A DNA stretch of 64,000 nucleotides from a virus. Its lineage: Duplodnaviria > Caudoviricetes. This document shows positions 9 through 30,015 of this stretch, piece after piece. The notes beneath the pieces were generated by a model. The model was given only the letters and a program-made list of their open reading frames with translations. It searched no databases and was not told the DNA's origin. Within the stretch, counting starts at the first letter, position 1. Each line of letters opens with the position of its first letter. The position numbers were made by a program, and so were the translations under genes. The stretch lies in the IMG/VR virus record IMGVR_UViG_3300032254_000001, positions 256,001 through 320,000 of that record. One strand, 5' to 3'.

Positions 9-404
9 TCAGATGTTAGTTCTTTCAAGTAGGTCTTCCTCTATTCTTTTCTGCTTATTCTCTTTACTAATATGATGAAGAAAGGCTGAGTGACTAACTT
101 GCACTAAAAATCCAAATGGGTTATTGCTTTTAGTTGAGTCAAAATGCTGATATGAAATTAACATTTGCATAACCGCAGCTTGAACTAAATCATCTGCGTA
201 CACTAGACTCTGATAATGTTTTCTGTGTAGTAGTCTATCCGCAAGTTCTATCATGTACTTGCCTAATGCTTGCGATACTTTGCCATCATTTTGTGCATAG
301 TCTATAGCAATAAGCAAATCAGAATTGTTGTTGATTGGACCGTAATAGCCCCACGGGTCAACTAACTTATCCCATACTGCACGTTGGTCTTTATTCAACA
401 GCAT
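9..404 (-). CDS. Truncated paralog of the gp55-like late sigma factor with an N-terminal AVWDKL tag
   Basis: DGKVSQALGKYMIELADR...KSNNPFGF...ISKENKQKRIEEDLLE aligns by eye with HGRTTNNLAMMYIKLCER...KSQNPFAY...LNIEKKMQNIRDDILE of the full gp55 at 28984-29961. Confidence 0.7.
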   Translation of the reverse strand: MLLNKDQRAVWDKLVDPWGYYGPINNNSDLLIAIDYAQNDGKVSQALGKYMIELADRLLHRKHYQSLVYADDLVQAAVMQMLISYQHFDSTKSNNPFGFLVQVSHSAFLHHISKENKQKRIEEDLLERTNI

Positions 405-684
405 TGAGTTTGTCCCATATAGCTTCTTTCTCTAAGCGATCATGGAACTCAATCATTGCTGCTTTTCTTTCTTTCTTAAAAAGATCAAGTGCTATCTTGT
501 GTGGGCAGTCCTCAGGGTACTCAGTTATGTTGTGTTCAGCTTCGCTTAAGCGACAAGAAACCCAAGTGTTGTCTGACTCGTAGTCCCTGCTGTGATCGCT
601 TATGTGTAATGTTTCATCCCACTCGTAGTAATTTTTACATTCAAGTATATCTCTGCACATACTGTCATAATGTATTCTAAACAT
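391..684 (-). CDS. Cys-containing hypothetical protein with C-terminal AIWDKL tag
   Basis: ATG at 684 preceded by GAGGA; shares NI..YPE.C.H and W.KL with 1765-2031. Confidence 0.7.
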   Translation of the reverse strand: MFRIHYDSMCRDILECKNYYEWDETLHISDHSRDYESDNTWVSCRLSEAEHNITEYPEDCPHKIALDLFKKERKAAMIEFHDRLEKEAIWDKLNAVE

Positions 685-937
685 CTTTCCTCTGCTCTGC
701 TGCAATTTCACTAATTAATATATCAGCTAGTTCTTGTTCAACATCTATTCCGTGTAGGGACTCTAGGTCTTTAGCAACGTCAACAGTCCAACTAGCACGT
801 AGCCTACGGGTCACAGGGCCAGTCTCCTTTAGGCGGTCCCAAACTTTTTCTTTCTCTCGTTGAATAGCTTCTTTCTGCTTCCGGATACCGTTGCGGATCT
901 TTCGTTGGTTCACTTGTATTGCTGTCTCTTTCATCAA
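677..937 (-). CDS. WxKL-tag mini-protein carrying a gp23 major capsid fragment
   Basis: KVWDRL followed by TRRLRASWT...HGIDVEQELADILISEIAAE; 21/39 identical to the MCP segment at about 8920-9040. Confidence 0.8.
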   Translation of the reverse strand: MMKETAIQVNQRKIRNGIRKQKEAIQREKEKVWDRLKETGPVTRRLRASWTVDVAKDLESLHGIDVEQELADILISEIAAEQRKDV

Positions 938-1166
938 ACTTCCATTCTCCTAGTATATGTTTATTAAATTCTGTCATATCTTTAGTCAGACTGTCAATGT
1001 ATGCGTCTACTAAAGACCAATCGATCCCATACTTCTGGGGGAGTTGTGTTACCCCAGATAATTTCTTCCATATGGTCTCTTCTTCTTTTTGCAGCCGCTC
1101 TCTTTCTTTTCGCCTCTGCTCTTTTCTTTTTCCGCGGGTCCTGAAACGTTTCCGTCTTGAAGTCAA
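804..1166 (-). CDS. Arg/Lys-rich WxKL-tag hypothetical protein
   Basis: TTG start with AGGAGG upstream; N-terminus MTSRRKRFRTRGKRK is paralogous to 994-1419; TIWKKL. Confidence 0.65.
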   Translation of the reverse strand: MTSRRKRFRTRGKRKEQRRKERERLQKEEETIWKKLSGVTQLPQKYGIDWSLVDAYIDSLTKDMTEFNKHILGEWKFDERDSNTSEPTKDPQRYPEAERSYSTRERKSLGPPKGDWPCDP

Positions 1167-1419
1167 AATGAAACCCTCCTACTGGTTCTATACCTGCTGT
1201 TTGTTCGCCCATTGGCTGTACACCAACTAAGTCGTCTGCAATCATTACAGGTGCTATGCGTCTCATTAACGGCATTAAAATAGCGCCAAGATCATCCCAA
1301 TCGTATTCAGGTGGTAGTGGCGGGCTAACATTTGTTAACTTGTTCCAAGTCTCTAACGACTCTTTCCTTAGTGCTTTACGCTTACCACGCTGCCTACGTC
1401 TGCGCCTGACACTAGTCAT
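994..1419 (-). CDS. WxKL-tag mini-protein carrying a gp23 fragment (Gol-peptide-equivalent region)
   Basis: ETWNKL followed by ILMPLMRRIAPVMIADDLVGVQPM; 13/24 identical to the MCP segment at about 9288-9360. Confidence 0.75.
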   Translation of the reverse strand: MTSVRRRRRQRGKRKALRKESLETWNKLTNVSPPLPPEYDWDDLGAILMPLMRRIAPVMIADDLVGVQPMGEQTAGIEPVGGFHFDFKTETFQDPRKKKRAEAKRKRAAAKRRRDHMEEIIWGNTTPPEVWDRLVFSRRIH

Positions 1420-1765
1420 CGTCGGTAATATCCTTAGGTTTAGGTTTCATTATTATAACATTATCATGCTCGTCGGACTTCTCGTATTTGTTCTTAATAC
1501 TATCTAACTTTTCTTCAAATGTGTCGCAGGCCCACTCGTTTAATTGATTGTATAAGTCAGCAGCACCAGGCGTCACAGTGTGTCTAAATGTTTCTGTTTT
1601 TGAATCATAATTGCTGATTATACGTTCTATTCGTATTACCCGCTTCCTGCGCCACCAAGACTTGAAATGAATAGTAAAAACATCATAAACCTTTGTGCCA
1701 ATCTTATGCTCCATTGTGTGCTCGAAGTATTCGATTTTATCAAAAAATTCTTTAGGTAGTATCAT
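1412..1765 (-). CDS. Hypothetical protein
   Basis: ORF tightly packed between its neighbours on the same strand. Confidence 0.65.
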   Translation of the reverse strand: MILPKEFFDKIEYFEHTMEHKIGTKVYDVFTIHFKSWWRRKRVIRIERIISNYDSKTETFRHTVTPGAADLYNQLNEWACDTFEEKLDSIKNKYEKSDEHDNVIIMKPKPKDITDDD

Positions 1766-2031
1766 TATAGGACCTGTATATGTACTGGATCACGTAAAAG
1801 TGATTTTACTGTTCTATGGGGTTGATTCAATTTCTTCCACATTATATCTTGTTGCTTTGCTTTATCTTTCGCAATGGTAATATCTTCAAGGTGCAAACAA
1901 CCTTCTGGATATTTAATAATGTTAATCGTCACACCCATTACAATACAGGAATGACATTTACCAACCTGCATATCAAACTCTCTGTGGTACTTGCATTCCT
2001 TTGATTTACAAAATTCATTAAAGTTATACAT
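1765..2031 (-). CDS. Cys-rich hypothetical protein with IMWKKL tag
   Basis: CxxxxC, CxxC and YPEGCLH; paralog of 391-684. Confidence 0.7.
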   Translation of the reverse strand: MYNFNEFCKSKECKYHREFDMQVGKCHSCIVMGVTINIIKYPEGCLHLEDITIAKDKAKQQDIMWKKLNQPHRTVKSLLRDPVHIQVL

Positions 2032-3055
2032 GCTCTACAACTACTTTTACATTTGGAAACGGTGTTATAAACTGCCCACATGCAGACTGAATTTCAACTC
2101 CGGTTGAAATTTGTATCTTTAAATTATTGTGAAACTTTGCAAACTGCACAATAATTTCCTTAAAGCGATCGCTTTCTTCCATTTCGTTAGCATCACATCT
2201 GTTATAGCGTAGTACTCTGAACTCGTAGTCTTCTAGATTCCACTTAGTGATAAAATCAAACAATGCTTGCACTTCTTCTTCGCTATCGTTAACACCATCC
2301 ATAAACATATGATGGAATATTAAATTATGTTTGTTGTTGTCTGCGTACTTTAACAGCTTCGGCATTGCTTCTTCCAATGGCATAGCTCCAGGAATAATTT
2401 GATCCCTAGTCTCTTGTACTGCACTGTGCAACGAATAAAACAATCTAAATGGACTGCGCTGTATGTAATTGCCCATTGATGATTGTGCTTCACTATGCAC
2501 AACAACCTTGTTATTTGGATTAGTTCCAAATGATTTTAGGTCTTCATTGAGCTCGTGAAATATGTCAATCCAATCATCGTTTCTAATTTTAGGTAGCACT
2601 GTTGAAAGATCAACACCATCTAAGCCTGCTGCGTAGTTGTTATCTGTTACGTAGTTTAACACATCGTTGGTTGCTCTGTACACCCCTGCTGGGTTAAGAA
2701 TTGCTTCGCCCATGCCCATCCAGCATACTTTCATGTATCTGCTTGCTATGCTTGCATCGTGTTGCACTGCATGATCAATTGCATCAATAAGATTTGATTG
2801 CACTGTAGTAATTGGCAGCTTCTTGTAAGGCATTTCTTTCATTGTTAAGTAACAGAAGTCACACTGCATCGGGCATCCGCCGCTAATCGATGCGAACACT
2901 GAATACTTATTTCTGTTAATAGGATTCATTTCCAGTACACCAGTTACTGGATTTCTAATTGTGTCGCAGCTTGAAACAGTTTTTATTGCAGTTTCAGACG
3001 TGTCGCTATGCACATACTTTGTTACTAGTCCGTCATCTGATTCAAAAACTTCCAT
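2024..3055 (-). CDS. RlmN/Cfr-family radical SAM protein
   Basis: SISGGCPMQCDFC cluster motif, MGMGE, SLHS and C-terminal SACGQ, all RlmN/Cfr hallmarks. Confidence 0.85.
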   Translation of the reverse strand: MEVFESDDGLVTKYVHSDTSETAIKTVSSCDTIRNPVTGVLEMNPINRNKYSVFASISGGCPMQCDFCYLTMKEMPYKKLPITTVQSNLIDAIDHAVQHDASIASRYMKVCWMGMGEAILNPAGVYRATNDVLNYVTDNNYAAGLDGVDLSTVLPKIRNDDWIDIFHELNEDLKSFGTNPNNKVVVHSEAQSSMGNYIQRSPFRLFYSLHSAVQETRDQIIPGAMPLEEAMPKLLKYADNNKHNLIFHHMFMDGVNDSEEEVQALFDFITKWNLEDYEFRVLRYNRCDANEMEESDRFKEIIVQFAKFHNNLKIQISTGVEIQSACGQFITPFPNVKVVVEHV

Positions 3056-3290
3056 TGGTATTCCTCTTCAATGAGTCCGGGTGAATTATTTCGTTACGAA
3101 CTCTGTTGTTTTCTCTTTCCCTTGCTGCTTCCATCTCTGCTAGTATCTCGTCTTGGATGCGACGAACTGCTTCTTCCATACGTCCTACCATGTGTCGTAG
3201 CATCTCTTCCCATTCCGTGTCATGGATAGAAGGTTCTTCCTGCAGACCGTTCTTTAAGCGATCCCAGACTTCTTCTTGCTCTGTGTTCAT
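3042..3290 (-). CDS. WxKL-tag helical hypothetical protein
   Basis: EQEEVWDRL at the N-terminus; overlaps its neighbours. Confidence 0.7.
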   Translation of the reverse strand: MNTEQEEVWDRLKNGLQEEPSIHDTEWEEMLRHMVGRMEEAVRRIQDEILAEMEAARERENNRVRNEIIHPDSLKRNTNGSF

Positions 3291-3472
3291 GCCGTTGTGT
3301 CCGATACTATTGTTATAGCCTTGTCAGCTCGAAGCACCTGTGTTGACCAATATATCGATCGATACATAAGTGGTTCAAATTTAACCTTAGGCTCTGGAAC
3401 ATGCTTAAGCTTTTCCCACACCAGTTCTTTATCACTGGGTTCTGCAGATGTTACTTTCTTGACTTTTGCCAC
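3287..3472 (-). CDS. WxKL-tag hypothetical protein
   Basis: DKELVWEKLKHVPEPK, nearly identical to the tag in 4112-4567. Confidence 0.7.
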   Translation of the reverse strand: MAKVKKVTSAEPSDKELVWEKLKHVPEPKVKFEPLMYRSIYWSTQVLRADKAITIVSDTTA

Positions 3473-3671
3473 TAAATTTTAATGCGAAAATTATCGCATC
3501 CTCCTTATACTCAAACCACCAACGTGTGTTAGTGTAATGGTGATAAAAACATCCACCATCTTGTTGTTCGACACACCACTTGTGAGCTTCTTTAATACAG
3601 TCACGACATGGTGGTGGAACAACAAACCATAATTCATTACGATGTTCCTTAGGTGGATTACACCACTTCAC
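3432..3671 (-). CDS. Small protein of the WC...[FW]xFExExDAxxFxL family
   Basis: WCVEQQDGG...WWFEYKEDAIIFALKF. Confidence 0.7.
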   Translation of the reverse strand: MKWCNPPKEHRNELWFVVPPPCRDCIKEAHKWCVEQQDGGCFYHHYTNTRWWFEYKEDAIIFALKFSGKSQESNICRTQ

Positions 3672-3919
3672 TCATCTTTACCTACTACCACATACTCGAC
3701 GCTAGATACGCCGTCACCTAAATCTTTGTGTACTAATTTAGTTTCCACCTTACCTCCTCGCATATCAGCGAACAGTTGCGATGCTTTTTTAAGTTCTTCT
3801 TCTGTGTTCTCTACTTCTTTCCAATTCGAAGCCTTGCTCAGCTTTTCCCACATTAATTCCTTATCGTCATCTTCTGTAGTCTTGCCAAGAAGTATTCTTT
3901 TAAAACGTTCTAAGTTCAT
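3668..3919 (-). CDS. WxKL-tag hypothetical protein
   Basis: DKELMWEKL; ATGA overlaps with neighbours. Confidence 0.7.
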   Translation of the reverse strand: MNLERFKRILLGKTTEDDDKELMWEKLSKASNWKEVENTEEELKKASQLFADMRGGKVETKLVHKDLGDGVSSVEYVVVGKDE

Positions 3920-4143
3920 TTGTCGATTGTACTCTCAATATCGAAATACATTGTTTTACCAGCTCCGCGTCGTGCTGCTATTACAACCAATTCACCTTTG
4001 CCAACACCACCACACAATGCTCTACCTAATTGCTGTTGGTACCATGTTAGGCCGTTGCCATTAAATGGTGGTACATACTCTGTGGATAACTTTTCCCACA
4101 TTAGTTCCTGCTCAGCGGCTTTTGAGGATTTTGATTGTGACAT
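3916..4143 (-). CDS. WxKL-tag mini-protein carrying an isolated Walker A (DnaB-like) fragment
   Basis: EQELMWEKL followed by GGVGKGELVVIAARRGAGKT, in only 75 aa. Confidence 0.7.
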   Translation of the reverse strand: MSQSKSSKAAEQELMWEKLSTEYVPPFNGNGLTWYQQQLGRALCGGVGKGELVVIAARRGAGKTMYFDIESTIDK

Positions 4144-4567
4144 TATTTGGATCCACCTCTTCTTTAGAAATACTTAGTATAGTGTCCATCATGCTCGGAT
4201 ATAATGAACTAATGTCATTATCAAACGTGCTACCCTTAGGCTGTGGAACATGTTTAAGCTTTTCCCAAACTTCTGCCTTTTCCTCTTCGATCTTCTGTAA
4301 TAAAATTTTAGCTTTAACACGGGTACCAAACACAGGACTTTTTGCAGCTTCCTGCAAGTCTGCTATCTCCATGCGGATCCGGTTGTCATGCTCCTCATCA
4401 GTATCAGTAATCATCCTAAGTCTAGCTTTTGCTCGTAGCCTAATGCCCATTGAATCATCCTTACTAAGGATTTTAAGATATTCCGGGCCATTGTTCATTA
4501 GCTCTATCTTCTCAGCTTCAGACATTGCCATTATTCTAATTTGGTCAAACAGATCAACTTCACTCAT
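4112..4567 (-). CDS. WxKL-tag protein carrying a family-B DNA polymerase motif A-like fragment
   Basis: EKAEVWEKLKHVPQPK followed by DISSLYPSMM. Confidence 0.65.
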   Translation of the reverse strand: MSEVDLFDQIRIMAMSEAEKIELMNNGPEYLKILSKDDSMGIRLRAKARLRMITDTDEEHDNRIRMEIADLQEAAKSPVFGTRVKAKILLQKIEEEKAEVWEKLKHVPQPKGSTFDNDISSLYPSMMDTILSISKEEVDPNNVTIKILKSR

Positions 4568-4797
4568 TTAAATTTTAATGCAAACAATGTTGCATCCTCT
4601 TCGTTTTCAAAATACCAATATGTTTCTCTAAATTCCACGTCCGCTTTATTTTCTTTATACCTGCGATAATATTGCCCTGATGAATTATGTCCTGTGCACC
4701 ATGATCCTTCCGCAGTATACGATCTAGATGCATGTCTAACTAATGTCACTTTATTCCACGGGTGGCCGTTAACATCGCCTATATCTTTATATTCCAC
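4564..4797 (-). CDS. Small protein of the FxFExExDAxxFxL family
   Basis: WCTG...YWYFENEEDATLFALKF. Confidence 0.7.
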   Translation of the reverse strand: MEYKDIGDVNGHPWNKVTLVRHASRSYTAEGSWCTGHNSSGQYYRRYKENKADVEFRETYWYFENEEDATLFALKFK

Positions 4798-5540: not shown

Positions 5541-5569
5541 ATTATAGCAAGTTTTGGAGGGATGGTCAA
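5541..5569 (-). promoter_or_regulatory. sigma70-type early promoter
   Basis: TTGACC-17 nt-TATAAT with extended TG. Confidence 0.8.
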
Positions 5570-5808
5570 TCAGTTTTGGTGTCATCGAGTGTAATGTTAA
5601 CGCTTAAATAGGGGAATTCGGTGTCATCTACGTACTCAACATCGTACGGCTTTTCAATTGTGCAATCGGTACTTAAAAAGGCATCTACTGCCGTCTGTTC
5701 CTCTATGGATAATACCTCATCCTGGAAAAGCCATATATCCATAACCGATTCGAATCCACCGTGCTTAATAAGAAGCAGTGTCATTAGGTGTTCCTGTTCT
5801 GGAGTCAT
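5566..5808 (-). CDS. LILK[YH]G-family small protein
   Basis: LLLIKHGG...DIWL. Confidence 0.65.
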   Translation of the reverse strand: MTPEQEHLMTLLLIKHGGFESVMDIWLFQDEVLSIEEQTAVDAFLSTDCTIEKPYDVEYVDDTEFPYLSVNITLDDTKTD

Positions 5809-5884: not shown

Positions 5885-6033
5885 TGGCTGTTCTTTATAT
5901 GCACGTCAAAACCTTCTTTTTCATGCTCGTAATATACAGGAGTATTGTTCAAAATCTTTGCTATTGAATGTGCAAACTCTCTGTCTTCTGTCATTAGTCG
6001 TACGAATGTTGCTTTAAGCTCTTCGTCACTCAT
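5881..6033 (-). CDS. 50-aa hypothetical protein (not in ORF track)
   Basis: MSDEELKATFVRLMTEDREF...KNSH*; fills the gap between two same-strand genes and overlaps the upstream stop. Confidence 0.55.
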   Translation of the reverse strand: MSDEELKATFVRLMTEDREFAHSIAKILNNTPVYYEHEKEGFDVHIKNSH

Positions 6034-6247
6034 CTTCATTATCTGTATCCTTTGGATTATCGTATAGTTTGTTAAACTCTTTCTTTACATCTAAAACAAG
6101 ATTTGGTAATATTTTTATTGCATGTTCACCTAGTACTTCCTTCTGGGCATCACTGAACTGTTCTTTATCGTACAACCATATACAGAATGCGTTCTCTATA
6201 CTGCCGTACTTCAAAATTAAAAATGTTTTAACATCATCTTCACTCAT
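6026..6247 (-). CDS. LILKYG-family small protein
   Basis: FLILKYGSIENAFCIWL. Confidence 0.7.
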   Translation of the reverse strand: MSEDDVKTFLILKYGSIENAFCIWLYDKEQFSDAQKEVLGEHAIKILPNLVLDVKKEFNKLYDNPKDTDNEDE

Positions 6248-6447
6248 TTGCGTCTGGTCTCTGCAAAGAATATATTAATAGCATCGTGCAAGTGAGCGGG
6301 CATTTTATCGTGTGTATTGATCCACATATGGAATGCTTTGTCCAAATTGCCGTATTTTAATATTAAATATGATTCTATATTATCCATAGTTATCGGTCCC
6401 GGGTGATACGCTGTTCGCGTTACTAGCGTAACACACTCGTCTACCAA
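6244..6447 (-). CDS. LILKYG-family small protein
   Basis: YLILKYGNLDKAFHMW. Confidence 0.7.
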   Translation of the reverse strand: MVDECVTLVTRTAYHPGPITMDNIESYLILKYGNLDKAFHMWINTHDKMPAHLHDAINIFFAETRRK

Positions 6448-6465: not shown

Positions 6466-6678
6466 TCATTTTAAGTCATCTTTTAGTGTAACACTTACTG
6501 GATATTTAATACCATCTTTGGTATGCTCTAATATCATGTGTGCTAGTTCGGATATAGTAGGATCTGGGTCGTTCTTAAATACATCAAGATGCTTACCATA
6601 ACGTACCATTATGAACTTTTCTTCAAACGGTAAGGAGTAGTACTTGATGTGATCAAATACATTTGATTCATTTGCCAT
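6466..6678 (-). CDS. Hypothetical protein (distant LILKYG-like, FIMVRYG)
   Basis: Same-strand packed ORF. Confidence 0.6.
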   Translation of the reverse strand: MANESNVFDHIKYYSLPFEEKFIMVRYGKHLDVFKNDPDPTISELAHMILEHTKDGIKYPVSVTLKDDLK

Positions 6679-6847
6679 TATCTTTATCTCTTTGATCTAA
6701 ATAATCGTTAAGTGCTTTTACTGCTTCCGTTAAGTTGTCCTTATTTCTATCAGTATTGTATTTCTGGATTATATCCAATTTTTGTTCCGTTGTTAGGTAT
6801 TCCTTATTAAGGTTTTCCCATGTTTCTTCTTCAGGTGTTTTAGCCAT
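6668..6847 (-). CDS. 59-aa protein with a WxKL-like tag (EEETWENL); not in ORF track
   Basis: ATG 6847 to TGA 6668, MAKTPEEETWENLNKEYLTTEQKLDIIQKY...; first gene after the 6886-6914 promoter. Confidence 0.7.
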   Translation of the reverse strand: MAKTPEEETWENLNKEYLTTEQKLDIIQKYNTDRNKDNLTEAVKALNDYLDQRDKDNGK

Positions 6848-6885: not shown

Positions 6886-6914
6886 AGTATAACAATTTAA
6901 AATGCGTTTGTCAA
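6886..6914 (-). promoter_or_regulatory. sigma70-type early promoter (leftward)
   Basis: TTGACA-17 nt-TATACT with extended TG. Confidence 0.85.
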
Positions 6915-7053: not shown

Positions 7054-7284
7054 ATGAATGTAGTACCCGGAGCATCTATAACAGCTATTAAAGATTCGTA
7101 CTTTATGGTTGAAGCACGTACTCCTTTTGAGCGTGATGGCGAATTATATCCATGGTGTAAGAATCACGATAGCGAAGGATATTTCAATTATGCTAATCGC
7201 TACTCTAGTGGCGGTAACGTCCGACCACAGTTTTGGTTTGAGTTAGAAGCTGATGCTATGTTGTTTAAGTTGAAATTCGCATGA
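7054..7284 (+). CDS. Small protein of the FxFExExDAxxFxL family
   Basis: WCKNHDSEGYF...FWFELEADAMLFKLKF. Confidence 0.75.
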   Translation: MNVVPGASITAIKDSYFMVEARTPFERDGELYPWCKNHDSEGYFNYANRYSSGGNVRPQFWFELEADAMLFKLKFA

Positions 7285-8346: not shown

Positions 8347-9537
8347 TTAGCTAAAGCTTAAATTGCTGACTGCGACTTCCCCTAAATAATCTCCAGCATT
8401 ACCGAAAGATGATGCAGTATTCGTAAGCTCAATATAACCATAACGTGTCATAAAGCTTACAACTGGCTCAAATGTACTTGGATCAAGTACAACACCTGAA
8501 CTCATTAAAGGAACGTATGGGCAGTAGAACGCTGGTGCGTCTGCTTCGCTTGAACCTTTATAACCAACAAGTACTGGAGTAGTGTCGTTAGCATAGCTAT
8601 CAACGTAAACTTTCATTGCTGAGTTAAGAGTACCAACAAACTTAGTGTTTGTAGGAGCTTCAAATGTACCTTCAGTGGTACGTGCAAATGCAGAGGTAGT
8701 AGCTGACTGTAGTACAGTTAAAGAAGCTGGTGAAACAACTGCATAGTTACCAGCGCCACGACGTGTACGTGTAGCGATAAGGTTAGCTGTACGGTTGATA
8801 AGAACTGCTAATGCAGCATGTTCATCACCTACGAATGTAGCAGTACCTGAAACAAGTGACTGATCGTATGTGAATTCTGTGCTTGCTAATGAACGTAAAG
8901 ATAAAAGAATCTCTTGGTCAATTTCAGCAGTAATTTCTTGTGCTAAAGCAGCCATGATTTCAGCTTCAACATCAATGCCGTGCATTGACTGAGCATCTTG
9001 AGCAGCTTCAAAAGTCCAACGTGCTTGTAACTTACGTGTCTTAGCTTCAACAGCTTGCTTTAAGATCTGAACGGAAATGTTACGACCGCCTTCGCCTTCT
9101 AAGTTTGCTGTCTGTGCTGCACGGTAGTCAGCTTGTGTAGCGCCAACACCAGCTGAGTATGCTTGCGCAATCTTGAATGGTGATAGTGCTTCTTCGCCTG
9201 CTGCTGTACTAGTACTAGCTGCACTTGAATCAGTCATAGTAGAACCGTAACGTACACGAAGTGTATGAATCTGGCTTACAGGACCTGACATTGGCTGTAC
9301 ACCTACAAGTTCATTTGCAATGACTGTAGGCATAACACGTCGAATAACTGGTAAAATAACACGGTTTAATGTTGCAACGTTACCAGCGGCAGTAGCGCCA
9401 CTTGATGCAGATTCTGCTAAGTGGTTACGAGTGTTTTCCAAAATTACGCTCATTGTAGAACGTTTGGTACCGTCTAGACCTTCAAGCAATGCTTCTTTGG
9501 TCTCACCCCAACGGTTTTCTAATAGTGCTTGTGACAT
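8347..9537 (-). CDS. gp23: Major capsid protein (T4 gp23-like)
   Basis: LVGVQPM, TRKLQARWT, HGIDVEAE, FYCPYVPL and TRYG motifs. Confidence 0.97.
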   Translation of the reverse strand: MSQALLENRWGETKEALLEGLDGTKRSTMSVILENTRNHLAESASSGATAAGNVATLNRVILPVIRRVMPTVIANELVGVQPMSGPVSQIHTLRVRYGSTMTDSSAASTSTAAGEEALSPFKIAQAYSAGVGATQADYRAAQTANLEGEGGRNISVQILKQAVEAKTRKLQARWTFEAAQDAQSMHGIDVEAEIMAALAQEITAEIDQEILLSLRSLASTEFTYDQSLVSGTATFVGDEHAALAVLINRTANLIATRTRRGAGNYAVVSPASLTVLQSATTSAFARTTEGTFEAPTNTKFVGTLNSAMKVYVDSYANDTTPVLVGYKGSSEADAPAFYCPYVPLMSSGVVLDPSTFEPVVSFMTRYGYIELTNTASSFGNAGDYLGEVAVSNLSFS

Positions 9538-12449: not shown

Positions 12450-12457
12450 TATTTATG
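12450..12457 (-). promoter_or_regulatory. gp55-type late promoter CATAAATA
   Basis: T4 late-promoter-like octamer just upstream of ATG 12444. Confidence 0.7.
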
Positions 12458-14156
12458 GCTCTTCGATATCTACATCACCGCCAGCACCAACTTCATCCGG
12501 GCCGTCAGCTTCAAGATCTAACTCAGCGTCAAAGTCTTCCATGTCGCCTAAGTCAGCATCCATACCGCCCGGTGTTACACCAACGCCACGTAAGTCACTA
12601 CCAGCTGTACCTGTTTCTTCTTCATCTGGTACATTGTTTTCTTCACGCCACATAGTTTCATTCTCAAGCATTTCAGCTTCAGTTAAACCTAAGAAACGCT
12701 TAAGTGCAAAACGCTTAGACATATAAGGAATATCTGCTGTACCACTAAAGTTGCCTAGGCGTGTAGCATCAAGCTCTGTTTGTCTGTAACTTGCAAAGTT
12801 CTGCGGATTATTAAACTTAATGTCGAAGATCTTAGCATCAATGTTAAAGCCTCTCCAACGTAAAAACATCTTAAACTCTTCGTTTATCTTTGTTACGATG
12901 TTGTTTTGTATACGTTCGCAGTACTGGTTAAAGCGGAATTCTTGTATTAAAGCTGTGCCCATACGTCCATCATTTAACGTGCCTTGGCTATCGTCTGGAC
13001 CTGTTGGTAGGTAACTTGAAGGTACTCGGAGACCACGGGCCATCTTGTTATTGAAGTATCTTAAGTCATCAATTTCAGATAGATTTTGTCCGCCGGGTAA
13101 TGTATCTACCTTCGAACCACGTCCTTCAGCTGTCTGTGGGAAGAAGTAATCTTCGTTCATAGACATTGGATTGTAGCTAGCATCTAACTGATTAGCACCG
13201 CCACTCTGTGTAGGGATTCTGCGCTGATGTATTTCATTCTTAACACGCTCTACAAAGCCCATAGCTAAGTGTGCTGGCATGCTACCAACATCTATATAAA
13301 AGATACGGCGCTCTGGCGCACGTTGTATTCTATAGATAAGGATAGCATCCTCAAGCAATTCTTTCTGCTTGTATACTTTATAAATTTGTTCAAGTATTGA
13401 TTGTCCAAAAGGCCAGTTGTAGTCAAGCCCTTCTGTTAAGCTAATGTGTACAACATGCTGAGCATCAACTGCCGACTCTTTCATGCCCATAGCAAAACGG
13501 CTTGCGTTTGCTCCGCCTTGGTCTGGAATAGTATATGTCTGCGGTGCTGTATAACCTTGATTCGGTTGTCCTGTTTGTGCATCAGTAACTGTCTTTGCTG
13601 CTACTGTTAGGTTCTCAAGGTTAGGATTAATGTCCTCAATAATATACTGCTCTGGCATTTTGCCTTCGCTTTCATTAACAATTACTCGTTTTACTTTGTT
13701 AGTTTCAACCCAGTTTAACTTAAATGTTTCTGGATCACGTATAAACACTTGGTCTCCGTACTTAATAGAGTTACGGAAGATTTTGAATATACGCTTATCG
13801 AATTCGTTTAGCTTAACCCATTGCTGTAGCTGCTGTGTAATGATTTTGATTTCGTTATCAGTAGGCTTATCGTTGTAATGAACTTCAAATGCTGTGTTAT
13901 TCTCTTCACTTGTTTGCGTTGAGAACTCAGATATGATATCCAAACATGCATTAACTTCACTGTCTAGGTCCATTGCTTCAAACTGATTATAGCGTTCAAC
14001 ACGATTTGGGTGTCCAGTGTACACCTCAGGTAGATTACTTTGGTAATTACGGAACCCAACTTGGCCGTTCTGATCACTGCCGCCACCCATGCCGCCACTA
14101 ATAGGACTCATGGTTCCTGTTGTGTCTGCTACTTTGAAATATTTACGCCACGTCAT
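12453..14156 (-). CDS. gp20: Portal protein (gp20)
   Basis: LLEDAILIYRIQRAPERRIFYIDVG, EDYFFP, TLPGGQNL motifs. Confidence 0.96.
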   Translation of the reverse strand: MTWRKYFKVADTTGTMSPISGGMGGGSDQNGQVGFRNYQSNLPEVYTGHPNRVERYNQFEAMDLDSEVNACLDIISEFSTQTSEENNTAFEVHYNDKPTDNEIKIITQQLQQWVKLNEFDKRIFKIFRNSIKYGDQVFIRDPETFKLNWVETNKVKRVIVNESEGKMPEQYIIEDINPNLENLTVAAKTVTDAQTGQPNQGYTAPQTYTIPDQGGANASRFAMGMKESAVDAQHVVHISLTEGLDYNWPFGQSILEQIYKVYKQKELLEDAILIYRIQRAPERRIFYIDVGSMPAHLAMGFVERVKNEIHQRRIPTQSGGANQLDASYNPMSMNEDYFFPQTAEGRGSKVDTLPGGQNLSEIDDLRYFNNKMARGLRVPSSYLPTGPDDSQGTLNDGRMGTALIQEFRFNQYCERIQNNIVTKINEEFKMFLRWRGFNIDAKIFDIKFNNPQNFASYRQTELDATRLGNFSGTADIPYMSKRFALKRFLGLTEAEMLENETMWREENNVPDEEETGTAGSDLRGVGVTPGGMDADLGDMEDFDAELDLEADGPDEVGAGGDVDIEEP

Positions 14157-14667
14157 TTGTAGTTACCTTTAATTGTTTTTTCATATTTTGTGCATCTCTT
14201 CTAGCTTGTGACCACGGCTTACCTTTTAATGTAGCCGATGCCTTTGCATATCTTCCGTCTGGTTTCCTACCTAAGTTTGCCTGACGTATCTTTTCTGCAT
14301 GTTCAGCTGTCTTGGGCTTACGGTAGTTTTTCTTATGTGCTTCTGTGCGCACCTTACCTTTATTGCCTGCAGAAATCTTTTCTTTAGCTTGCTCGCTGTG
14401 GTACCAATCCGAATTAGATGTTTTGCCACCACGACGTAAATTCTTTAATATACCAGTGTTATTGCATGCCAACCCATAATGGTCAACTAATTTAGTTTCT
14501 AAATCCCACGCATCTTCCTTTGTCATACTGCTTCGAATAACTGCAATTTCTGTTAATGCTGGTACATCAACATACAAATGATACGCGGTCATTCTGTTAC
14601 CTTTGCCCATTCCAATGTAATACGGTATATCGTCTGCTAGGTACATGTATACATAATGCTCTGCCAT
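14143..14667 (-). mobile_element. GIY-YIG homing endonuclease with NUMOD3-like repeats
   Basis: HYVYMY...PYYIGMGKGNR; HSEQAKEKIS and TAEHAEKIRQA repeats. Confidence 0.8.
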
Positions 14668-28983: not shown

Positions 28984-29961
28984 TTATGAATCGTCAGTTT
29001 TCTTTTTGTTGGGGTTACACAAGTTATAATCGTATGCAAAGTCTTCTTTCTTGCCTTCGTTTGCAAACTGTCTAGTCCAACTAGGTGTTAGTCCGTTAGC
29101 TTCGAGAATATCATCACGTATATTTTGCATCTTCTTCTCAATGTTTAGTACACGAGTAAAGCTGTTAGTCACTGCGGCAGTGTAGTACGCAAATGGGTTC
29201 TGTGATTTAAGTTCATTAAACTGTAGCCCAATCTGTGATAGCTGCAATAACGCTTGTCCTTGCATCTCATCGTTATACGTATACCCACGCCAGTTACTAC
29301 GTGTGCCATAACGTTCGCATAGCTTTATGTACATCATAGCTAAGTTATTTGTAGTTCTGCCATGATCTTTGGTAAACTTGCCTTCTTCGATATCGCCCTT
29401 CCAGTGTGATTTACCTACTATTTCTGCAGATAGCTCACCATCTGTGTCTGTTACACGGTAATGGAAGAATGGAGGGAAGTTAACACGCATTGGTATCATT
29501 TCAACATCTGGATCAGTTGGTGATAATGATTGATCATCGTCAGTTTCGATTAGTTCGTCAAATACTGCGTTTGCTTTTGCTTGTTTCGCTGCTTTAGCTA
29601 ATGCCGCTTTTGATTTCTTCTTAGGCACTAGCGGAATGTGCTCATTGGTCATAACACGGAATACAACATCATGCAGTTCAACGTCTGCTACATCTGTCGG
29701 TATTTCTAACTTAGTGAGTCGTGTTGCTCGTGCTTGTCTAGCTAAATCAACGACGGGTACGTCTTTGAATGTAGGGTTACCGTTTTCGTCTTTGCCGACA
29801 TCAACGTTCTGTGTTCCCCAAATTTCTTCTAGTGATTCTACTATGAAGTCTTGCTGATTGTCCTCAACTTTATCTTTAAAGGAACAATATGATATTTTGC
29901 TTAGGTGTATTTCTTTAAGCATATCCTTATTATTTAAGTAATTCTTTTTTCTCTTAGCCAT
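28984..29961 (-). CDS. gp55: Late transcription sigma factor (gp55-like)
   Basis: N-terminal KNYLNNKDMLKEI; NWRGYTYNDEM and NPFAYYT; ATG 29961 with GAGGA upstream. Confidence 0.9.
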   Translation of the reverse strand: MAKRKKNYLNNKDMLKEIHLSKISYCSFKDKVEDNQQDFIVESLEEIWGTQNVDVGKDENGNPTFKDVPVVDLARQARATRLTKLEIPTDVADVELHDVVFRVMTNEHIPLVPKKKSKAALAKAAKQAKANAVFDELIETDDDQSLSPTDPDVEMIPMRVNFPPFFHYRVTDTDGELSAEIVGKSHWKGDIEEGKFTKDHGRTTNNLAMMYIKLCERYGTRSNWRGYTYNDEMQGQALLQLSQIGLQFNELKSQNPFAYYTAAVTNSFTRVLNIEKKMQNIRDDILEANGLTPSWTRQFANEGKKEDFAYDYNLCNPNKKKTDDS

Positions 29962-29987
29962 AAAATCCTCGTTGCTGTAGTGCATAC

Positions 29988-30015
29988 AGTATAACATGAT
30001 GTGCGTATTTGTCAA
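29988..30015 (-). promoter_or_regulatory. sigma70-type promoter for the gp55 operon
   Basis: TTGACA-16 nt-TATACT with extended TG. Confidence 0.6.

What the first reader, a model, noticed from the sequence alone, without database searches (positions are those of the whole stretch)
9..4567. Array of mini-proteins sharing a WxKL tag, fused to fragments of essential phage proteins (candidate decoy/mimic library)
Seen: the motif [VIMT]-W-[DEKN]-[KR]-L, usually after an acidic or coiled stretch, occurs 12 times in 11 co-oriented small ORFs (Trp codons at 372, 415, 839, 1027, 1068, 1345, 1837, 3264, 3416, 3848, 4096, 4265). A variant (ETWENL) occurs at 6818. Codons vary synonymously (AAG/AAA/CGC/CGA; CTA/TTA/CTT/TTG), so the constraint is at protein level. 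In at least five ORFs the tag precedes an isolated piece of a core protein: gp55 core, two different gp23 segments, a DnaB-type Walker A and PolB motif A. Established: capsid, helicase and other core phage proteins can trigger abortive-infection sensors (e.g. Lit, CapRel). Inference: a modular 'tag + bait' system expressed early, either to decoy or saturate host sensors, or to poison competing phages as dominant negatives, with the tag docking all members on one partner or scaffold.
Basis: partly seen in the sequence, partly recalled or inferred. Interest (0 to 1): 0.92.

Follow-up and report, generated by a model that had tools for sequence, protein, structure and literature searches.

The report
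Tagged mini-proteins carrying core-protein fragments
An uncultured giant T4-related phage carries an apparently early-expressed row of tiny genes that each join one short Trp-containing "handle" to a copy of one of the most conserved blocks of its own capsid, replication or transcription proteins; selection keeps this design, several related phages share it, and its purpose is unknown.

Summary
The motif [VIMT]-W-x-[KR]-L occurs 14 times in a 4.5-kb stretch, 12 of them in the window. Residue shuffles give 0.04, and the enrichment over the rest of the 344-kb genome is more than 100-fold. The constraint is on the protein, not the DNA.

The tagged ORFs carry 25-60-residue copies of conserved blocks. 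These come from gp23 (three blocks here, a fourth in relatives), a DnaB-type helicase and PolB motif A (weak here, clearer in orthologues). One ORF holds a near-complete gp55 core. In relatives the cargo also includes portal, tail-sheath, UvsX/RecA and fibre pieces.

Six related metagenomic arrays keep the same kit. Synonymous sites are saturated, yet pooled dN/dS is 0.19 for the handle and 0.27 for the cargo. A 40-residue N-terminal module ending in the tag heads 62 protein clusters, all 44-146 aa.

Two cultured relatives have neither the tag nor stray gp23 pieces. Sinorhizobium phage Phosso has two stray gp23 pieces without the tag.

Function is untested. I favour competitive mimicry (decoy or antagonist) at about 0.3. 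The scan has noted analogous capsid-fragment mini-genes with other handles on other genomes.

The parts
6886..6914 (-). Sigma-70-type promoter (TTGACA, 17 nt, TG-n-TATACT) heading the minus-strand array. It faces a divergent plus-strand block.
   Evidence: 11 of 12 consensus matches with an extended -10. The capsid gene instead has a TAAATA box. Timing is inferred, not measured.
6668..6847 (-). First array gene, 59 aa, with the variant tag ETWENL. Its L006 orthologue carries EKLWDSL and EEWNKL.
4112..4567 (-). 151 aa: an N-terminal repeat domain (a separate gene in relatives), an internal tag (Trp codon at 4265) and a PolB motif A-like piece (about 4187-4216), ending in a conserved VTI(K/R)(I/V)LK(S/N)R.
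   Evidence: 7 of 8 identical to resident PolB motif A; the L022 orthologue DLNSAYPSAIANVM resembles the resident DINSLYPSAIQACNM
3916..4143 (-). 75 aa: tag (Trp 4096), Pro-containing spacer, and a DnaB-type strand plus Walker A piece (about 3952-4017).
   Evidence: phrog_19 E 4.8e-5; Pfam DnaB_C E 0.009; the only match to DnaB_C outside the resident helicase; the L006 orthologue against the resident helicase gives E 3e-6
3668..3919 (-). 83 aa: tag (Trp 3848) with cargo of unknown origin.
3287..3472 (-). 61 aa: tag (Trp 3416) with a diverged paralogue of the PolB-type cargo. Its tag and linker DNA is 90% identical over 40 nt to that of ORF 4112-4567.
   Evidence: 3382-3421 against 4231-4270
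3042..3290 (-). 82 aa: N-terminal tag (Trp 3264) with acidic helical cargo. An orphan with no relatives in 5.8 billion proteins.
1765..2031 (-). 88 aa: Cys-rich domain with a C-terminal tag (Trp 1837). Paralogue of ORF 391-711.
994..1419 (-). 141 aa: Arg-rich N-terminus, tag (Trp 1345), gp23 N-arm block (about 1207-1290, the region reported as Gol in T4), basic tail and a second tag (Trp 1027).
   Evidence: Pfam Gp23 positions 6-37, E 5e-6; 52% identical over 27 aa to resident MCP residues about 57-83; orthologues aligned in A4
804..1166 (-). 120 aa gene in the +1 frame, overlapping the 3' end of 994-1419 and the 5' end of 677-937. It has an Arg-rich start, a tag (Trp 1068) and a conserved IDW...EF.K...GEW stretch.
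   Evidence: the frame and motifs are conserved in L006, L022 and L024
677..937 (-). 86 aa: basic helix (RKIRNGIRKQ), tag (Trp 839) and the gp23 strand plus spine-helix block (680-811).
   Evidence: Pfam Gp23 positions 147-190, E 5e-12; 48% over 44 aa to the resident MCP; 54.5% to cyanophage gp23; 8 small homologues of 79-108 aa; AF2 gives helix 5-37, a break, then helices 43-60 and 65-83
391..711 (-). 106 aa: Cys-rich domain with a C-terminal tag (Trp 415).
9..404 (-). 131 aa: N-terminal tag (Trp 372) followed by a gp55-type late-sigma core. The ORF ends just after the core.
   Evidence: phrog_234 positions 35-125 of 181, E 1e-16; Sigma70_r2; 32% to cyanophage gp55 against 24% to the resident 343-aa gp55-like protein; tagged orthologues in L024, L031 and L032
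1..28 (-). Start of a 71-aa tagged gene (genome 255813-256028) whose cargo is a fibre-repeat motif. Next downstream, outside the window, is a 66-aa tagged gene (genome 255610-255810) with the end of the gp23 spine helix.
   Evidence: (Gp23 positions 160-216, E 1.5e-3)
1412..1765 (-). Untagged 117-aa protein, conserved in five of the arrays examined (67-71% identity to the window copy). Predicted as a five-stranded sheet plus a long helix. Role unknown.
   Evidence: no PDB fold match; absent from cultured phages
8347..9537 (-). Resident major capsid protein gp23, parent of the capsid pieces. Blocks used: about aa 57-86, 152-219 and 324-364.
28984..30015 (-). Resident long (343 aa) gp55-like late sigma.

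Best explanation
Shown: the array encodes modular mini-proteins. Each has a short amphipathic handle with consensus [DE]-[KQ]-[DE]-x-[VTIM]-W-x-[KR]-L-K-x-[GV]-x-P-P. The handle is often the end of a longer basic helix and is followed by a Pro-rich or flexible spacer. It presents a 25-60-residue copy of an invariant block of a T4-type core protein. These are capsid N-arm, strand plus spine helix and C-terminal strands, helicase and RecA P-loop strands, PolB motif A, portal, sheath N-arm and fibre repeats. A whole gp55 core is also carried. Inferred, and my preferred mechanism: the proteins are made early from a sigma-70 promoter, before the real proteins accumulate. They act by competitive mimicry, occupying whatever reads those immutable blocks. 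The shared handle supplies solubility, anchoring or a second contact.
For: The tag is enriched more than 100-fold and constrained at the protein level. The cargo repertoire is not random. 19 of 79 tagged genes against 0 of 63 untagged array genes hit a resident core gene. Among 62 clusters sharing the N-terminal module, 16 hit Pfam Gp23 and 20 hit the resident capsid gene, which is 0.35% of the genome. Cargo is under purifying selection, with pooled dN/dS 0.27 at dS about 1.1. The pieces stay as close to the parent as to their own distant orthologues. The kit is accessory: PA5oct and Vibrio phage 2.275.O lack both the tag and stray pieces. Stray gp23 pieces from the same blocks recur on other carriers in the cultured phage Phosso. 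The array has an early-type promoter. A 29-residue gp23 peptide is enough to bind EF-Tu (PMC3014915). Host STAND sensors target these same protein classes (PMC13581612).
Against: No binding partner of tag or cargo was identified and no expression data exist. Published Avs sensors recognise folded cores through large interfaces, not linear motifs. In T4 a free Gol peptide activates Lit rather than blocking it. Walker A, Walker B and PolB motif A are buried catalytic strands, which make odd epitopes. The kit is fairly stable across relatives rather than turning over quickly. A later check in this scan priced the same mimicry reading at 13/100 for an analogous system on another genome. The host is unknown.
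Confidence: 0.3

Rival explanations
1. The pieces regulate or chaperone the phage's own core proteins in trans. Each piece substitutes for, or caps, one structural element of its parent (capsid N-arm, sheath N-terminal strand, RecA or helicase interface strand, fibre repeat). This prevents premature or aberrant assembly, or several capsid pieces brought together by the handle rebuild a partial capsid P-domain. The tail-less gp55 would tune late transcription.
For: The same kit of about a dozen cargo types is kept across phages whose synonymous sites are saturated. Many parents are self-assembling proteins. The capsid-piece genes are adjacent (994-1419, 804-1166, 677-937). The scan noted a T4 gene (61.1) as a capsid-arm copy with a head-targeting leader (unchecked).
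Against: Sister phages with a 63-66% identical capsid protein manage without the kit. PolB motif A and the Walker motifs are not assembly interfaces. The promoter is of early type whereas most parents are late.
Confidence: 0.2
2. The pieces are dominant-negative poisons aimed at co-infecting T4-type phages or satellites. They interfere with folding or assembly of the competitor's homologous core proteins, and the tagged tail-less gp55 blocks its late transcription.
For: Two of the window's pieces are closer to canonical T4-type or cyanophage proteins than to the resident ones. The spine-helix piece is 54.5% against 48% identical. The gp55 core is 32% against 24%. The targets are motifs a competitor cannot mutate.
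Against: The resident proteins carry the same motifs, so self-poisoning would have to be avoided. A competitor's late proteins appear when early products may already be gone. No immunity mechanism is visible.
Confidence: 0.15
3. The array is a gene nursery. The tag DNA acts as a recombination or duplication module that fuses a ready-made start and soluble helix to captured DNA. Cargo similarity to core genes reflects origin only, and the proteins' functions (for example host take-over) do not depend on mimicry.
For: Near-identical tag and linker DNA sits next to unrelated cargo (40 nt at 90%). The tag can be N-terminal, internal or C-terminal. Some members are orphans. Other cargoes, such as Cys-rich domains and the WFE..EDA..FALKF domain, are not core pieces.
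Against: Random capture predicts capsid pieces at about 0.35%, not a third or more of cargoes, and not always the same three or four blocks. Cargo dN/dS is 0.27 and parent-like residues persist after synonymous saturation. The same blocks recur independently in Phosso.
Confidence: 0.12
4. The mini-proteins are RiPP-like precursors. The tag would be a leader peptide recognised by the radical SAM enzyme at 2024-3055, which would modify the variable core peptides.
For: There are many small ORFs with a conserved short motif and variable remainder, and a radical SAM gene lies inside the array.
Against: The radical SAM gene is missing from the arrays of all relatives examined. Its 48% homologue in L005 has no tagged neighbours. 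Its best family matches are Cfr/RlmN RNA methyltransferases, not peptide maturases. The tag can be C-terminal.
Confidence: 0.03

Closest known systems
Gol region of T4 gp23 and the Lit/EF-Tu exclusion system
   Same: A short block from the first quarter of gp23 (29 residues), reported as the most conserved region of the protein, is active on its own and binds EF-Tu domains II and III (PMC3014915). ORF 994-1419 carries a block from the N-proximal part of gp23 (Pfam Gp23 positions 6-37) as a free-standing piece. That this is the Gol region itself rests on recall, not on a check of T4 coordinates.
   Different: Gol is part of the full capsid protein and triggers a host defence. Here the block is a separate, apparently early, tagged gene, one of a kit covering many core proteins. 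Binding to EF-Tu was not shown.
Capsid and portal fragment mini-genes with other handles noted by this scan (e1-4035658 and others; T4 gene 61.1, e1-311612)
   Same: The design is the same: a lineage-specific handle joined to short conserved pieces of T4-type capsid, portal or sheath proteins, in tandem small genes, kept by selection (AI notes, one of them checked later).
   Different: The handle differs. Here it is a 12-15-residue Trp helix motif rather than a small folded domain, a Tat-like leader or a head-targeting leader. The cargo range is wider here (helicase, RecA, PolB, gp55). I did not re-test those notes.
RiPP precursor families (conserved leader, hypervariable core)
   Same: Many small ORFs share a short conserved recognition motif and have a variable remainder.
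   Different: There is no conserved maturase. The motif's position is not fixed. The cargoes copy phage core proteins.
Fragment mimics used as regulators: T4 Srd/Srh (host sigma look-alikes) and BRC repeats mimicking the RAD51 oligomerisation motif (own knowledge, not checked here)
   Same: A short copy of a conserved protein segment acts in trans by competing for that segment's partner.
   Different: Those are single cases copying one protein. Here there is a tagged kit copying about ten different phage core proteins.
Modular shuffling cassettes of T4-type hyperplastic regions (PeSL elements; own knowledge, not checked here)
   Same: Short repeated DNA modules at the starts of small early genes in a plastic region. 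A 40-nt, 90% identical tag block flanks unrelated cargo.
   Different: PeSLs are non-coding promoter and stem-loop elements. Here the repeated element is coding and is constrained at the protein level.

Membership tests
Major capsid protein Gp23 (PF07068) | Full-length HK97-fold capsid protein covering most of the 376-position profile | tested here: not met
   The pieces score above the Pfam cut-off but cover only profile positions 6-37, 147-196 or 160-216. The only full-length match is the resident gene at 8347-9537.
gp55 late sigma factor (phrog_234) | Sigma region-2-like core | tested here: met
   ORF 9-404 residues 38-128 match profile positions 35-125 of 181, E 1e-16. Sigma70_r2 E 1e-6.
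gp55 late sigma factor (phrog_234) | C-terminal part beyond the core (in T4 the sliding-clamp-binding tail; own knowledge) | tested here: not met
   The ORF ends 3 residues after the matched core and profile positions 126-181 are unmatched. The tag replaces nothing known at the N-terminus.
DnaB-type replicative helicase (PF03796 / phrog_19) | Complete RecA-like ATPase domain with Walker A and Walker B | tested here: not met
   Only profile positions 11-35 of 255 match. The ORF stops 9 residues after the Walker A GKT. Orthologues in L022 and L024 lose the P-loop lysine context.
Family B DNA polymerase (PF00136) | Polymerase fold; motif A alone is not sufficient | tested here: not met
   No profile hit for ORF 4112-4567. 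There is only an 8-residue match to resident motif A.
RiPP precursor and radical SAM maturase cluster | Conserved co-occurrence of precursors with a peptide-modifying maturase | tested here: not met
   The radical SAM gene is absent from the arrays of L006, L009, L022, L024 and L031. Its homologue in L005 has no tagged genes nearby. Its best families are Cfr/RlmN.
T4-type head-targeted internal proteins (CTS leader) | N-terminal targeting leader ending in an L/I-x-E cleavage site, with late expression | tested here: not met
   The tag is N-terminal, internal or C-terminal and has no L/I-x-E consensus. The array has a sigma-70-type promoter.
Known phage anti-defence decoys or sponges | Demonstrated binding to, or neutralisation of, a defence component | not testable with these tools
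   The host and its defences are unknown. No homology to catalogued families was found in Pfam, PHROGs or NCBIfam. PADLOC was not searched because these are phage proteins.

The most novel reading that the evidence does not exclude
The array is a natural bait library. Each mini-protein would be a bivalent antagonist. The common Trp-helix handle would bind a conserved module shared by a family of host pattern-recognition receptors, or one host hub. The cargo would occupy the variable sensor site that reads an immutable block of a core phage protein. Several capsid pieces might be brought together by the handle to rebuild a fold-level decoy. That would be a pan-decoy kit mirroring the modular architecture of host sensors of the core phage proteome.
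Probability: 0.15. Interest if true: 0.95.

Novelty: categorically new. Interest (0 to 1): 0.8.

Why it matters
If the pieces work by mimicry, this would be a previously undescribed strategy. The phage would pre-load the cell with copies of the very sequence blocks it cannot mutate, instead of evolving one inhibitor per defence. That bears on how phages cope with immune sensors that target the conserved core proteome. It would also hand experimenters a ready-made map of which 25-60-residue blocks of capsid, portal, sheath, helicase, RecA and polymerase proteins are read by something in the cell.

Even if the function is different, such as assembly control, competition or gene birth, the architecture stands. 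It is a selected, recurrent way of building new small proteins from fragments of essential genes, in one of the least understood parts of giant phage genomes. A cultured system, Sinorhizobium phage Phosso, carries two such capsid pieces and makes the question testable.

Tried and rejected
1. Hidden nucleotide signal (RBS plus ATG in another frame) as the cause of the tag. Rejected: the third position of the codon before Trp is unbiased and third positions carry almost no information.

2. Recent self-duplication or decaying pseudogenes. Rejected: the pieces are only 36-59% identical to the resident genes, orthologues are intact across saturated synonymous divergence, and dN/dS is 0.17-0.35.

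3. The radical SAM gene as an anchor for synteny or as a RiPP maturase. Its 48% homologue (L005) lies in an unrelated context and relatives' arrays lack it.

4. The N-terminal part of ORF 677-937 as capsid-derived. A 94%-coverage tblastn match to cyanophage S-RIM32 turned out to be real only for residues 43-86.

5. IMG/VR scan with the ORF 677-937 family. It returned only true capsid genes.

6. ORF 1412-1765 as a possible hub. It folds confidently but has no PDB fold match and no atlas neighbour. Nothing links it to the tag.

7. One complex prediction, the capsid N-arm piece (residues 30-90 of ORF 994-1419, 4-row alignment) with E. coli EF-Tu. It gave no answer (score 0.00, controls not run). 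This is neither support nor evidence against.

8. RNA evidence. Only two DNA runs from microbial-mat metagenomes hold the stretch and no RNA run does.

9. A search for relatives of ORF 3042-3290 found only itself.

10. Literature searches for capsid-fragment decoys, terminase mimics and small early PA5oct proteins found nothing that describes this design.

Full report
**Where this is.** The window is bases 256,001-320,000 of a 344,483-bp virus record with terminal repeats, judged complete. It comes from a microbial-mat metagenome. The phage is T4-related. It has a Gp23-type capsid gene at 8347-9537 (-), a T4-type portal at 12453-14162 (-), a family B polymerase, a DnaB-like helicase and a RecA/UvsX-like protein. 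Its capsid protein is 63-67% identical to those of the jumbo phages Sinorhizobium Phosso, Vibrio 2.275.O and Pseudomonas PA5oct.

- On the minus strand, 11 small co-oriented ORFs carry the motif 12 times, exactly at the listed Trp codons. Two more tagged ORFs lie just before the window.
- Of 25 six-frame matches in the whole genome, 14 fall in 4.5 kb.
- Residue shuffles of the 16 array proteins give 0.038 matches on average, with a maximum of 2 in 5000. The 467 other ORFs of 100 aa or more hold 7 matches in 110,110 residues.
- Aligning about 40 instances from three phages extends the motif to [DE]-[KQ]-[DE]-x-[VTIM]-W-x-[KR]-L-K-x-[GV]-x-P-P.
- First and second codon positions are informative and third positions are not. 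This includes the codon before Trp, so the idea that the Trp is the shadow of a start codon in another frame fails.
- Some paralogue pairs still share DNA: 40 nt at 90% between the tag and linker of ORFs 3287-3472 and 4112-4567, next to diverged cargo.

**The cargo really is made of pieces of core proteins.**
- ORF 677-937 (residues 43-86) matches Gp23 profile positions 147-190 (E 5e-12).
- ORF 994-1419 (residues 46-77) matches Gp23 positions 6-37 (E 5e-6).
- The 66-aa ORF upstream of the window weakly matches Gp23 positions 160-216.
- These pieces are 48-52% identical to the resident capsid protein.
- ORF 3916-4143 matches a DnaB-like helicase family (E 4.8e-5). It is the only place outside the resident helicase that matches DnaB_C.
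- ORF 9-404 is the tag plus an almost complete gp55-type core (E 1e-16). It lacks everything after the core. It is closer to cyanophage gp55 (32%) than to the resident 343-aa gp55-like protein at 28984-30015 (24%).
- PolB motif A in ORF 4112-4567 has no profile support. Its DISSLYPS against the resident DINSLYPS is nevertheless the best local match to the resident polymerase. Orthologues keep or improve the match: DLNSAYPSAIANVM in L022 and IVDYDISSFYPGVI in L031.

**The design is conserved and selected.**
- ORF 677-937 has eight small homologues of 79-108 aa.
- Their contigs, and two found later, give six further arrays (L006, L009, L022, L024, L031, L032) with the same tag and largely the same kit.
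- The kit comprises the capsid N-arm, strand plus spine helix, spine-helix end, and a fourth capsid block (FYCPYVP...EPV). It also includes the helicase strand, PolB motif A, tagged gp55, a fibre domain, a fibre repeat and two Cys-rich proteins with the tag at the C-terminus.
- L031 adds RecA/UvsX and portal pieces.
- Against the resident genome, tagged genes of the five arrays hit a core gene in 19 of 79 cases and untagged array genes in 0 of 63. Fisher p is 6e-6, but orthologues are not independent and about seven cargo families are involved.
- Between the window and its relatives synonymous sites are saturated (pS 0.5-0.9) while pN is 0.19-0.41. Among the closer trio, dN/dS is 0.17-0.35 for most families.
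- Split by region, pooled dN/dS is 0.19 for the handle and 0.27 for the cargo. The cargo evolves faster than the handle but is clearly constrained.
- The pieces are about as similar to the resident parent as to their own distant orthologues. This fits a pull towards the parent pattern.

**A wider family.**
- A 40-position profile of the basic helix plus tag that heads ORF 677-937 finds 62 clusters (50% identity) among 1.84 billion proteins. All are 44-146 aa with the module at residues 1-40.
- Behind the module, 16 have Pfam Gp23 hits, and 20 hit the resident capsid gene in the strand/spine-helix and C-terminal blocks. The N-arm block is carried by the separate ORF 994-1419 family.
- Other cargoes hit the helicase, the RecA-like protein, the portal, the sheath N-terminus or PolB motif A. 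A set carries a Walker-B-like hhhhDE stretch.
- A capsid gene that makes up 0.35% of the genome supplies a third or more of the cargoes.
- AlphaFold2 models ORF 677-937 as a long N-terminal helix ending in the tag, a break, then two helices covering the capsid piece. There is no compact fold (pTM 0.35). A Pro-rich spacer after the tag is common.

**Distribution.**
- Vibrio phage 2.275.O and PA5oct have neither the tag nor any capsid piece outside their capsid genes.
- Phosso lacks the tag but has two accessory proteins with stray capsid pieces above the Pfam cut-off.
- One is about 205 aa and starts with the N-arm block.
- The other is 126 aa and starts with the C-terminal block. That block is fused to a domain that by eye resembles the WFE..EDA..FALKF type, which also occurs as separate small genes in this array.
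- So the pieces, not the tag, are the recurrent element, and the kit is accessory rather than part of the conserved core.
- This scan has also noted capsid, portal or sheath fragment mini-genes with quite different handles on other genomes. One follow-up confirmed the anatomy, and a later check priced the mimicry reading at 13/100. I did not re-test those.

**Timing.** A near-consensus extended -10 sigma-70 promoter sits at 6914-6886, directly upstream of the first array gene. The genes are tightly packed or overlapping down to the end of the array. The capsid gene instead has a TAAATA box. Early expression is therefore inferred, not shown. No RNA data exist.

**What it most likely does.**
- Shown: anatomy, enrichment, conservation, selection, non-random cargo and accessory status.
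- Inferred: the pieces act as surrogates of single invariant elements of core proteins. They compete for whatever binds those elements, while the handle gives solubility, anchoring or a second contact.
- I favour a host reader (0.3). The kit is accessory and apparently early, it would not harm the phage's own proteins, and it copies exactly the residues the phage cannot change. The protein classes copied are the ones host STAND sensors are reported to detect (PMC13581612). A 29-residue capsid peptide is known to bind EF-Tu on its own (PMC3014915).
- Against this, those sensors are reported to read folds, not sequences. Free Gol activates Lit. Several cargoes are buried catalytic strands. No partner is known.
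- Rivals are trans-acting control of the phage's own assembly and timing (0.2), dominant-negative poisoning of co-infecting T4-type phages (0.15), a gene nursery in which cargo similarity is only ancestry (0.12) and RiPP-like precursors (0.03).
- The remaining probability is for something not thought of.

**Comparison and novelty.** Nothing in Pfam, PHROGs or NCBIfam names the tag or the family, and literature searches found no description. The closest published element is the Gol peptide. The closest concepts are fragment mimics and leader/core precursor families. As an architecture (one handle, many copied blocks of the core proteome, in a conserved early array) it does not belong to any described kind of system. 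The function remains open.

Noticed in passing
window 804-1166 (-), overlapping 994-1419 and 677-937: A 120-aa gene read in the +1 frame overlaps the 3' end of one capsid-piece gene by about 170 nt and the 5' end of the next by about 130 nt. Its frame, tag and an IDW...EF.K...GEW stretch are conserved in L006, L022 and L024. Its last 40 or so residues look like a by-product of the strongly conserved start of ORF 677-937. This is either dual coding or a frameshift product.
   Followed up: partly
window 2024-3055 (-): A radical SAM protein sits inside the array. Its C-terminal half matches Cfr/RlmN RNA methyltransferases (E 1e-17, far below the family cut-offs). It is 36% identical to a Klebsiella phage protein and 48% to one on an unrelated viral contig. 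It is not part of the array in relatives.
   Followed up: partly
window 3432-3671 (-), 4564-4797 (-), 7054-7284 (+): A second mini-protein family ends in W(W/Y)FE..(E)DA..FALKF. It has no Pfam or PHROG hit. ORF 3432-3671 is almost unchanged in L009. By eye, Phosso has a run of similar genes, and one of them carries a capsid piece at its N-terminus.
   Followed up: partly
window 5566-5808, 6026-6247, 6244-6447 (-): A third mini-protein family shares an N-terminal (F/Y)LILKYGS...A...W motif. It is present in many copies in all related arrays. The tagged gp55 of L024 starts VWIILKYG, which looks like a blend of this motif and the tag.
   Followed up: no
window 1412-1765 (-): An untagged 117-aa protein is 67-71% identical across five arrays and absent from all cultured phages searched. 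It is predicted with pLDDT 78 as a five-stranded sheet plus a 30-residue helix, with no PDB fold match.
   Followed up: partly
window 28984-30015 (-) and 9-404 (-): There are two gp55-type sigma proteins: a 343-aa form with a long N-terminal extension, and the 131-aa tagged core that is closer to cyanophage gp55. Which of them drives late transcription is open.
   Followed up: partly
genome 108229-110988 (outside the window), PolB residues about 217-231: The resident polymerase itself contains CLWDKLPKKRTFE. This aligns weakly (E 0.5) with the tag plus linker of the PolB-type mini-protein (VWEKLKHVPQPKGSTFD). It may be chance, or a hint to where that tag copy came from.
   Followed up: no
protein P0050 (metagenomic, 90 aa): One member of the 62-cluster family seems to carry two pieces in a row behind the handle. 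A capsid strand (Gp23 profile 115-164, E 4e-4) is followed by a portal helix (Portal_T4 273-303, E 2e-3; E 4e-4 against the resident portal).
   Followed up: partly
genome 255283-255600 (just before the window): By sequence, an IscA/HesB-type Fe-S assembly protein directly follows the array. The gene at the matching position in L009-L011 hits PF01521. After it come an unidentified 274-aa gene and then structural genes.
   Followed up: no
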